Assembly: GCF_000027125.1 (NCBI RefSeq)
Contig: NC_017626.1
Reading direction: 5' to 3' (one strand)
DNA: 64,000 bases
Source of the DNA: Escherichia coli 042
GTDB taxonomy: Bacteria; Pseudomonadota; Gammaproteobacteria; Enterobacterales; Enterobacteriaceae
Notes under the pieces: model-generated
Told to the model about the DNA's origin: nothing
What the model saw: the letters and a program-made list of their open reading frames with translations, nothing else
Databases searched by the model: none
In this document: positions 6,901-7,829 of the stretch, one piece after another
Numbering within the stretch: the stretch's first letter is position 1
How the letters are laid out: the number at the start of each line of letters is the position of its first letter
Made by a program: the position numbers and the translations under genes

Positions 6901-7296
6901 ATGTTCACGATTAAAACAGATGATCTCACCCATCCAGCAGTGCAAGCATTAGTGGCTTACCATATTTCCGGCATGCTGCAGCAGTCTCCCCCCGAAAGCA
7001 GTCATGCTTTAGATGTGCAAAAATTACGTAACCCGACAGTGACATTCTGGTCAGTATGGGAAGGCGAACAACTCGCAGGAATTGGTGCGCTGAAGTTGCT
7101 GGATGATAAACATGGCGAACTGAAATCAATGCGTACCGCGCCAAATTATTTACGTCGAGGTGTCGCCAGTCTGATTTTACGCCACATTTTGCAGGTCGCC
7201 CATGACAGATGCCTTCATCGCCTGAGCTTAGAAACGGGTACACAGGCTGGATTTACGGCCTGCCATCAACTTTATTTGAAGCATGGTTTTCGTTGA
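6901..7296 (+). CDS. yedL: GNAT-family N-acetyltransferase, apparently C-terminally truncated
   Basis: 131-aa ORF ending ...KHGFR*; as I recall, K-12 YedL is 159 aa, and an out-of-frame continuation encoding about 27 more residues is visible downstream. Confidence 0.75.
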   Translation: MFTIKTDDLTHPAVQALVAYHISGMLQQSPPESSHALDVQKLRNPTVTFWSVWEGEQLAGIGALKLLDDKHGELKSMRTAPNYLRRGVASLILRHILQVAHDRCLHRLSLETGTQAGFTACHQLYLKHGFR

Positions 7297-7829
7297 TTGC
7301 GAACCGTTTGCTGATTATCAACTTGATCCACACAGTCGATTTTTGTCATTGACGCTATGCGAAAATAATGAATTGCCATGAGCCAGACGCAGCACATTCT
7401 TGCATTCGACGTGCTGCGCCTTTATTCATCACCAGCCGCATATGTCTTGTCCTTAGACGCTCCTTCCACATGCGCCACAAGAAACCTCTATTCCAGTGAC
7501 ACAATTGCGCCTAACTATTTAATTCTTACCATCTATTACGCCCCTTTTGACTATGTCAGAATATTTATCATAATCAGCGGAATTCGTAACAATATATTTT
7601 CGCTGCGATATTTCATAGGTAATGTCTGTCAAAGTCCACGGCATTAAAAACTCCTCTTTAATAGGATAACATTCTATAAAAAGTAATTTTAAATTGCTAT
7701 GTATCGCAGGGACAACCTCAATATTATACTCCATACGTGCTGTCTCCAGATGATTTGGGAAGTATTGAATTTTTTTATCTTATTATCACCACAATTAAAC
7801 AGATTAGTAGTCTCAGGCATTGCTGGTAT

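What the first reader, a model, noticed from the sequence alone, without database searches (positions are those of the whole stretch)
7270..7380. yedL acetyltransferase ends early; the conserved C-terminus continues in another frame
The track ORF stops at ...KHGFR (131 aa). Immediately downstream, one frame over, the sequence still encodes a plausible continuation (...CEPFADYQLDPHSRFLSLTLCENNELP). This suggests a recent frameshift or nonsense change relative to a longer ancestral gene (I recall 159 aa in K-12), or a sequencing error in a short homopolymer region.
Basis: partly seen in the sequence, partly recalled or inferred. Interest (0 to 1): 0.25.

Follow-up and report, generated by a model that had tools for sequence, protein, structure and literature searches.

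The report
Frameshifted yedL acetyltransferase pseudogene
One extra T in a short T-run breaks the small accessory E. coli acetyltransferase gene yedL near its end; this real, inherited mutation is already flagged as a pseudogene in public annotations, so the finding is ordinary.

Summary
The ORF at 6901-7296 (+) gives 131 aa ending KHGFR. The next 28 codons of YedL (…VDCEPFADYQLDPHSRFLSLTLCENNELP) continue in the +1 frame to the normal stop at 7379-7381.

- **Cause:** a 1-base insertion. The window has TTTT at 7287-7290, where intact alleles, including K-12 MG1655 (480 nt, 159 aa), have TTT.
- **Not a sequencing error:** the same allele is present in 137 of 5,426 complete E. coli genomes, including a strain named ST69. 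The exact 131-aa product is recorded on at least 1000 public contigs. RefSeq/PGAP marks the identical gene "frameshifted".
- **Single origin:** the extra T occurs on only one local haplotype.
- **What is lost:** strands β6 and β7 of the GNAT fold and six residues invariant across 28 YedL/YsnE homologues. Loss of function is therefore the likely result, though this is inferred, not shown.
- **Context:** yedL sits in a small decayed islet (yedL, the yedN pseudogene, an integrase remnant) that many E. coli lack entirely.
- **No sign of anything more:** I found no signals for programmed +1 frameshifting or phase variation.

Verdict: a known, lineage-specific pseudogene of low interest.

The parts
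6901..7381 (+). Whole yedL pseudogene (481 nt; 480 nt when intact)
   Evidence: It is identical to the RefSeq pseudogene 'yedL, GNAT family N-acetyltransferase, frameshifted' in strain 118UI (L001 3101-3581). The same annotation appears.
6901..7296 (+). Truncated ORF of 131 aa (130 native residues, then R, then TGA)
   Evidence: The ORF list is. Pfam Acetyltransf_1 matches with E=7.7e-14 over residues 37-130.
7287..7290 (+). TTTT run holding the one-base insertion (TTT in intact alleles)
   Evidence: The alignment shows it, and the position-by-position differences against L002, L003, L004 and L007 all show (7287,'T','-').
7294..7296 (+). Premature TGA stop created by the frameshift
7292..7381 (+). 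Out-of-frame remnant (+1 frame) that encodes V131-P159 of the ancestral protein plus the native stop at 7379-7381
   Evidence: It contains the family-invariant residues C133, P135, F136, Y139, D142 and S145 and the predicted strands b6 and b7.
6122..6790 (+). Upstream neighbour yedK (SOS-response-associated peptidase), intact
   Evidence: (222 aa) and the annotations.
7519..8633 (-). Downstream convergent DUF5503/yedN pseudogene (context; same decayed islet)
   Evidence: Annotated 'frameshifted; internal stop' in 118UI, P15-25, the K-12-like strain, ST69, PK8275 and FCI48, and listed as pseudogene yedN in K-12 MG1655. In the window it is split into ORFs 7519-7734 and 7830-8633.

Best explanation
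This is yedL (a YsnE/YedL-type GNAT N-acetyltransferase) inactivated by a real, inherited one-base insertion. A TTT run became TTTT at 7287-7290. That shifts the frame after F130, adds one wrong residue (R) and stops at TGA 7294-7296. The 131-aa product keeps b1-a4 of the GNAT fold, including the acetyl-CoA-binding b4-a3 region. It lacks strands b6 and b7 and the invariant C-x-P-F-A-x-Y-x-x-D-P-x-S motif, so it is most likely misfolded or inactive (inferred). The mutation arose once on one haplotype and is now carried clonally by a group of phylogroup-D-type lineages, including strains labelled ST69 and apparently ST394. The gene lies in a dispensable, decaying islet, so its loss is probably neutral.
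For: - **The lesion (shown):** there is a single extra T relative to intact alleles, and removing it restores 159 aa. K-12 yedL is 480 nt.
- **Real, not an error (shown):** 137 complete genomes carry the exact 61-bp T4 allele. Identical copies are annotated 'frameshifted' by PGAP. The exact 131-aa protein is on >=1000 contigs.
- **Single origin:** T3 on the same local haplotype occurs in 442 genomes. T4 on the K-12-type haplotype occurs in 0 genomes.
- **The lost segment matters:** B. subtilis YsnE (PDB 1YX0) aligns over residues 4-156 at E=4.6e-50. Six of the 32 invariant columns in a 28-sequence alignment (49-85% identity) fall in the lost tail. The AF2 model (pLDDT 91) places b6 at 131-132 and b7 at 145-151, and its closest solved structures are GNAT acetyltransferases.
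- **Dispensable context:** only about 1306 of 5426 complete genomes have yedL. The whole yedL-yedN-int segment is absent between yedK and fliE in strain 23CRST042. The neighbouring yedN and integrase are pseudogenes.
Against: - Loss of function is inferred from conservation and a structural model. No expression or activity data exist for either allele.
- The Pfam GNAT domain model itself is fully covered by the truncated product, so residual acetyl-CoA binding cannot be excluded.
- The remnant has picked up no further damage. It is identical to the intact allele apart from the T. That fits a recent event, but it would also fit continued use.
- The biochemical function of YedL is unknown.
Confidence: 0.9

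Rival explanations
1. Sequencing or assembly error: the extra T is a homopolymer miscall and the gene is intact in the real organism.
For: The site is a short homopolymer. One genome (FCI48) matches the repaired 699-bp sequence 100%.
Against: The same T4 allele is present in 137 complete genomes from many laboratories and hosts and on >=1000 contigs at the protein level. A 4-base run is not a typical error hotspot. FCI48 differs from the window over 9 kb only by 4 indels that mimic K-12 indel states, with no lineage SNPs, so FCI48 is the more suspect assembly.
Confidence: 0.02
2. The truncated 131-aa protein is a functional, shortened acetyltransferase (or has a new or dominant-negative role) and is kept by selection in this lineage.
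For: The Pfam GNAT model is fully matched within residues 37-130. The allele is widespread in a successful ExPEC-type lineage. GenBank submitters annotate it as an ordinary CDS.
Against: All 27 diverse homologues aligned are 151-185 aa and keep the C-terminal motif, which holds 6 invariant residues. The strands b6 and b7 are integral to the GNAT sheet in the model and in the solved relatives. The gene is absent from most E. coli, so hitch-hiking in a clone is enough to explain its frequency.
Confidence: 0.05
3. Programmed +1 ribosomal frameshifting at UUU-C restores full-length YedL. A P-site tRNA-Phe slipping from UUU (7288-7290) to UUC (7289-7291) would give exactly ...GFVDCEPF....
For: What the sequence shows directly: a +1 slip of tRNA-Phe from UUU to UUC is cognate and would regenerate the ancestral protein exactly. 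The shift window is short (7280-7293) and ends in UGA.
Against: - The A-site codon at the slip is CGU, a common, well-decoded Arg codon (established knowledge), not a stop or a rare codon.
- The UGA is one codon too far downstream to act as it does in prfB.
- No Shine-Dalgarno-like stimulator lies upstream (sequence).
- The arrangement is confined to one near-clonal haplotype, and every other homologue is a single ORF.
Confidence: 0.02
4. Phase-variable contingency switch: the T-run changes length reversibly to turn yedL on and off.
For: The lesion is in a homopolymer. FCI48 could be read as a revertant.
Against: A run of 3-4 T is far below the tract lengths that slip at useful rates (established knowledge: about 7 or more). 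T4 occurs on a single haplotype and never on the K-12-type haplotype among about 1050 genomes. The FCI48 indel pattern looks like an assembly artefact.
Confidence: 0.01

Closest known systems
E. coli K-12 YedL (b1932), putative GNAT acetyltransferase, 159 aa
   Same: It is the same locus between yedK and the yedN pseudogene. The protein is 98% identical over the shared residues.
   Different: The window allele has one extra T (T4 against T3), giving a 131-aa product. It also has A131V, Q101H and R140Q-type substitutions relative to K-12.
RefSeq pseudogene 'yedL, frameshifted' in E. coli 118UI, O15:H18 strain ST69 and PK8275
   Same: In 118UI the sequence is 100% identical over the 700-bp stretch that spans the gene, and all three strains carry the exact 61-bp T4 allele with the same frameshift. 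PGAP already flags the gene as a pseudogene in all three.
   Different: Nothing differs in the gene itself. The window strain differs from these genomes in the nearby fli region by about 1-2%.
Bacillus subtilis YsnE (PDB 1YX0), 159 aa GNAT
   Same: It is about 55% identical and aligns over residues 4-156 of the repaired protein, including the CEPFADY..DP.S.F tail.
   Different: YsnE is intact. The window product stops before the region equivalent to YsnE residues ~130-155.
prfB-type programmed +1 frameshift
   Same: A +1 shift would be needed to read through, and a UGA lies nearby.
   Different: There is no stop or rare codon in the A site at the only cognate slip position, no SD-like stimulator and no conservation beyond one clone.

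Membership tests
GNAT (Gcn5-related N-acetyltransferase) superfamily | Significant match to the Pfam Acetyltransf_1 (PF00583) model above the gathering score | tested here: met
   E=7.7e-14, 52.4 bits against a cutoff of 20.7, residues 37-130.
GNAT (Gcn5-related N-acetyltransferase) superfamily | Complete fold b1-a1-a2-b2-b3-b4-a3-b5-a4-b6-b7 encoded in one reading frame | tested here: not met
   The AF2 model of the repaired protein (pLDDT 91) puts b6 at 131-132 and b7 at 145-151. The window ORF ends at residue 131.
YedL/YsnE subfamily | Full-length collinear similarity to YsnE/YedL (about 150-160 aa) | tested here: met
YedL/YsnE subfamily | Conserved C-terminal motif C-x-P-F-A-x-Y-x-x-D-P-x-S in frame with the N-terminal domain | tested here: not met
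   The motif is invariant or nearly so in 28 sequences. In the window it lies in the +1 frame after a premature stop.
Frameshift pseudogene (as defined by NCBI PGAP) | The coding region needs a frame change to align to full-length homologues, and the change is absent from close intact relatives | tested here: met
   PGAP notes 'frameshifted' on the identical sequence. P15-25 has the intact allele one indel and one SNP away.
Programmed +1 ribosomal frameshift (prfB/RF2-like) | Slippery codon with a stop or slowly decoded codon in the A site, plus an upstream SD-like stimulator | tested here: not met
   The sequence reads CAU GGU UUU CGU UGA. The A-site codon at the UUU slip is CGU, and there is no AGGGGG-like element upstream.
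Programmed +1 ribosomal frameshift (prfB/RF2-like) | The frameshift arrangement is conserved across diverged homologues | tested here: not met
   It is found only on one near-clonal haplotype (137 genomes). 442 genomes with that same local haplotype carry T3, and no genome carries T4 on the K-12-type haplotype, while homologues in other genera are full-length proteins.
Phase-variable homopolymer (contingency) locus | A long mononucleotide tract whose length varies among close relatives | tested here: not met
   The tract is 4 nt. T4 arose on one haplotype only.

The most novel reading that the evidence does not exclude
The T4 allele is not dead. Either low-level +1 slippage of tRNA-Phe (UUU to UUC at 7288-7291) regenerates exact full-length YedL, or the 131-aa b6/b7-less GNAT fragment has its own activity in the ST69-related ExPEC lineage.
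Probability: 0.04. Interest if true: 0.4.

Novelty: already known. Interest (0 to 1): 0.06.

Why it matters
It matters little. It adds one more entry to the list of lineage-specific pseudogenes in E. coli, in a gene of unknown function that most strains lack. There are two practical points. The T4 allele is a simple marker for a group of phylogroup-D-type lineages (ST69-like). It also shows that GenBank and RefSeq annotate the same sequence differently, as a 131-aa CDS in one and a pseudogene in the other. The comparison with FCI48 is a small warning that homology-based polishing may silently 'repair' true pseudogenes.

Tried and rejected
- **Sequencing error:** rejected on population evidence.
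- **Recurrent slippage or phase variation:** I searched for T4 on the K-12-type haplotype and found none.
- **Extant direct ancestor:** only FCI48 matches the repaired 699 bp exactly. Its indel-only differences from the window, all four agreeing with K-12 indel states, make it unreliable as evidence.
- **Identifying the source strain:** a search with window 1-25000 gave a best identity of only 99.1%, so the strain is either not in the collection or mosaic in the fli region.
- **Literature on YedL:** the first search was swamped by surnames. The refined search showed that YedL was one of the candidates overexpressed in the Christensen et al. 2018 lysine-acetyltransferase screen (PMC6199490). 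That paper reports four new KATs (RimI, YiaC, YjaB, PhnO), and YedL is not among them. No function is established.
- **NCBIfam:** only sub-threshold matches (ArsN2, RimI), so it gives no specific functional assignment.
- **Promoter and terminator scan of 6700-7700:** nothing informative.
- **Independent translation of the 32-aa +1 ORF starting at ATG 7283:** considered and rejected. No usable Shine-Dalgarno sequence lies upstream (sequence).

Full report
**Observation.** The ORF at 6901..7296 on the + strand encodes 131 aa ending ...LYLKHGFR, followed by TGA at 7294-7296. One frame over (+1), the sequence from 7283 to the stop at 7379-7381 reads MVFVDCEPFADYQLDPHSRFLSLTLCENNELP. The N-terminal ORF is a GNAT acetyltransferase (Pfam PF00583, E=7.7e-14, residues 37-130).

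**The lesion.** A 700-bp query around the gene found full-length matches (at least 80% of the query) in 1286 of 5426 complete E. coli genomes. Most aligned over 699 bases of the record rather than 700. Alignment with an intact near-identical allele (strain P15-25) and with a K-12-like strain shows a single-base difference in length. The window has TTTT at 7287-7290 where the others have TTT (position list). Removing one T gives a 480-nt ORF of 159 aa. The change is a +1-base frameshift after F130, not a nonsense mutation. It adds one wrong residue (R) and then a stop.

**Real or artefact.** Several lines show the extra T is real.
- The 700-bp stretch is 100% identical in strain 118UI, where PGAP annotates yedL as a pseudogene, "frameshifted".
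- A 61-bp query centred on the run matches exactly in 137 complete genomes. Their sources are human urine and CSF, chickens, cattle, wild birds and wastewater, on several continents.
- Two more of these genomes that I checked (O15:H18 "strain ST69" and PK8275) also carry the "frameshifted" flag.
- The exact 131-aa product is recorded on at least 1000 contigs in the public protein collection, and some submitters annotate it as an ordinary GNAT protein.

A sequencing error in this one window is therefore excluded for practical purposes.

**Origin and distribution.** The repaired 60-bp sequence (T3, same local haplotype) matches exactly in 442 genomes. The repaired 159-aa protein is itself common, on at least 1000 contigs. 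T4 placed on the K-12-type haplotype matches no genome. So the insertion is seen on only one haplotype, which indicates a single event that was then inherited.

The carriers include a strain named ST69. A genome announcement table appears to list EcPF15 as ST394. ST69 wastewater isolates in another study had 118UI, NMBU-W13E19, WP8-S17-ESBL-12 and SCU-313 as closest references, and all four are T4 carriers. This lineage assignment is indirect, because I could not run MLST.

Only one genome, FCI48, is 100% identical to the repaired 699 bp. Over window 1-9000 it differs from the window by four indels (6063, 7287, 7773, 8320), which agree with K-12's indel states, and by just one substitution, at 8346, where the window alone differs from every comparator. 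That pattern looks more like homology-guided polishing than biology, so I do not rely on FCI48 as an extant ancestor.

**What is lost.** The repaired protein aligns with B. subtilis YsnE (PDB 1YX0) over residues 4-156 at E=4.6e-50, and the tail CEPFADY..DP.S.F is conserved. A database search found 745 homologues. The diverse ones are 151-185 aa long and cover 92-100% of the query. In an alignment of 28 of them (49-85% identity), C133, P135, F136, Y139, D142 and S145 are invariant, and A137, P143, M148 and L152 nearly so. All of these lie beyond the premature stop.

An AlphaFold2 model built from that alignment (mean pLDDT 91, pTM 0.85) has this layout: β1 2-6, α1 12-28, α2 39-42, β2 47-54, β3 57-68, β4 71-79, α3 88-102, β5 107-113, α4 116-127, β6 131-132, β7 145-151. 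Its closest solved structures are 1YX0, 3LOD, HP0935 and other GNAT acetyltransferases. The truncated product therefore keeps everything up to α4 and lacks the last two strands of the central sheet. From established knowledge of the GNAT fold (sheet order β1-β2-β3-β4-β5-β7-β6), β7 packs against β5. Its loss should expose the sheet edge next to the acetyl-CoA site. Loss of function is an inference; it has not been measured.

**Context.** The gene order is yedE-yedF-yedK-yedL, then the convergent DUF5503/yedN pseudogene, an integrase remnant, and fliE. yedN is "frameshifted; internal stop" in every genome I inspected. K-12 labels the integrase remnant as cryptic prophage PR-G. Only about 1306 of 5426 complete genomes contain yedL. 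In strain 23CRST042 the whole yedL-yedN-int segment is missing, and yedK is followed within about 400 bp by fliE. So yedL is an accessory gene in a decaying islet. No gene lies downstream of it in the same orientation, so a polar effect is not expected.

**Function of YedL.** None is established. It was one of the GNAT candidates overexpressed in the Christensen et al. 2018 screen for lysine acetyltransferases (PMC6199490). The four enzymes that screen identified are RimI, YiaC, YjaB and PhnO. NCBIfam gives only sub-threshold matches.

**Rivals.**
- **Programmed +1 frameshifting.** A slip of tRNA-Phe from UUU (7288-7290) to UUC (7289-7291) would restore exactly ...GFVDCEPF.... However, the A-site codon there is the common CGU and no Shine-Dalgarno-like stimulator is present. 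The arrangement is also confined to one haplotype.
- **Phase variation.** This is implausible for a 4-nt tract with a single origin.
- **A functional truncated enzyme.** This cannot be excluded without experiment, but the invariant residues and strands that are lost argue against it.

**Verdict.** This is a genuine, lineage-specific frameshift pseudogene of an accessory GNAT gene. It is already recorded as such in RefSeq. Novelty is "already known" and interest is low.

Noticed in passing
window 7519-8633 (-): The DUF5503/yedN gene is broken into ORFs 7519-7734 and 7830-8633. It is annotated 'frameshifted; internal stop' in every related genome I inspected, and K-12 MG1655 lists it as the pseudogene yedN. 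The larger fragment has a weak LRR-type match to the T3SS effector SspH2 (E=1.3e-4, far below the cutoff).
   Followed up: partly
window ~8817-8975 (+): There is an integrase remnant (intG; 'cryptic prophage PR-G' in K-12) between the yedN pseudogene and fliE. The coordinates are transferred from the 118UI annotation (L001 5017-5175).
   Followed up: no
window ~6800-9000; L008 2990-3384: The whole yedL-yedN-int islet is a presence/absence polymorphism. Only about 1306 of 5426 complete E. coli genomes have yedL. In strain 23CRST042, yedK is followed directly by fliE.
   Followed up: partly
L007 (FCI48) against window 1-9000: FCI48 is SNP-identical to the window haplotype but differs at four indel sites (window 6063, 7287, 7773, 8320) that agree with K-12's indel states. 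One of these gives it an 'intact' yedL. This may be a homology-polishing artefact in that assembly.
   Followed up: partly
window 8346: The window has T where all seven comparison loci (118UI, P15-25, the K-12-like strain, MG1655, ST69, PK8275, FCI48) have C. This is a private SNP inside the yedN pseudogene.
   Followed up: no
window 9000-27500: The fli region (fliE to beyond fliR) differs by about 1-2.5% from FCI48, and the start of it (9000-10500) by about 1% from 118UI, although both are identical or nearly so to the window around yedL. The best match to window 1-25000 in 5426 complete genomes is only 99.1%. This suggests a recombination mosaic near the flagellar genes, or a source strain that is not in the collection.
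   Followed up: partly
window 21521-21607 (-) and 29943-30032 (+): Rfam finds the sRNAs DsrA (102.5 bits) and RseX (97.8 bits). There are no tRNA genes in the window.
   Followed up: no
protein cluster of P0001: The 90% cluster of the 131-aa product also holds other short E. coli YedL forms (93, 94, 98, 99 and 106 aa), and some are not marked partial. These may be further independent truncations of yedL in other strains.
   Followed up: no
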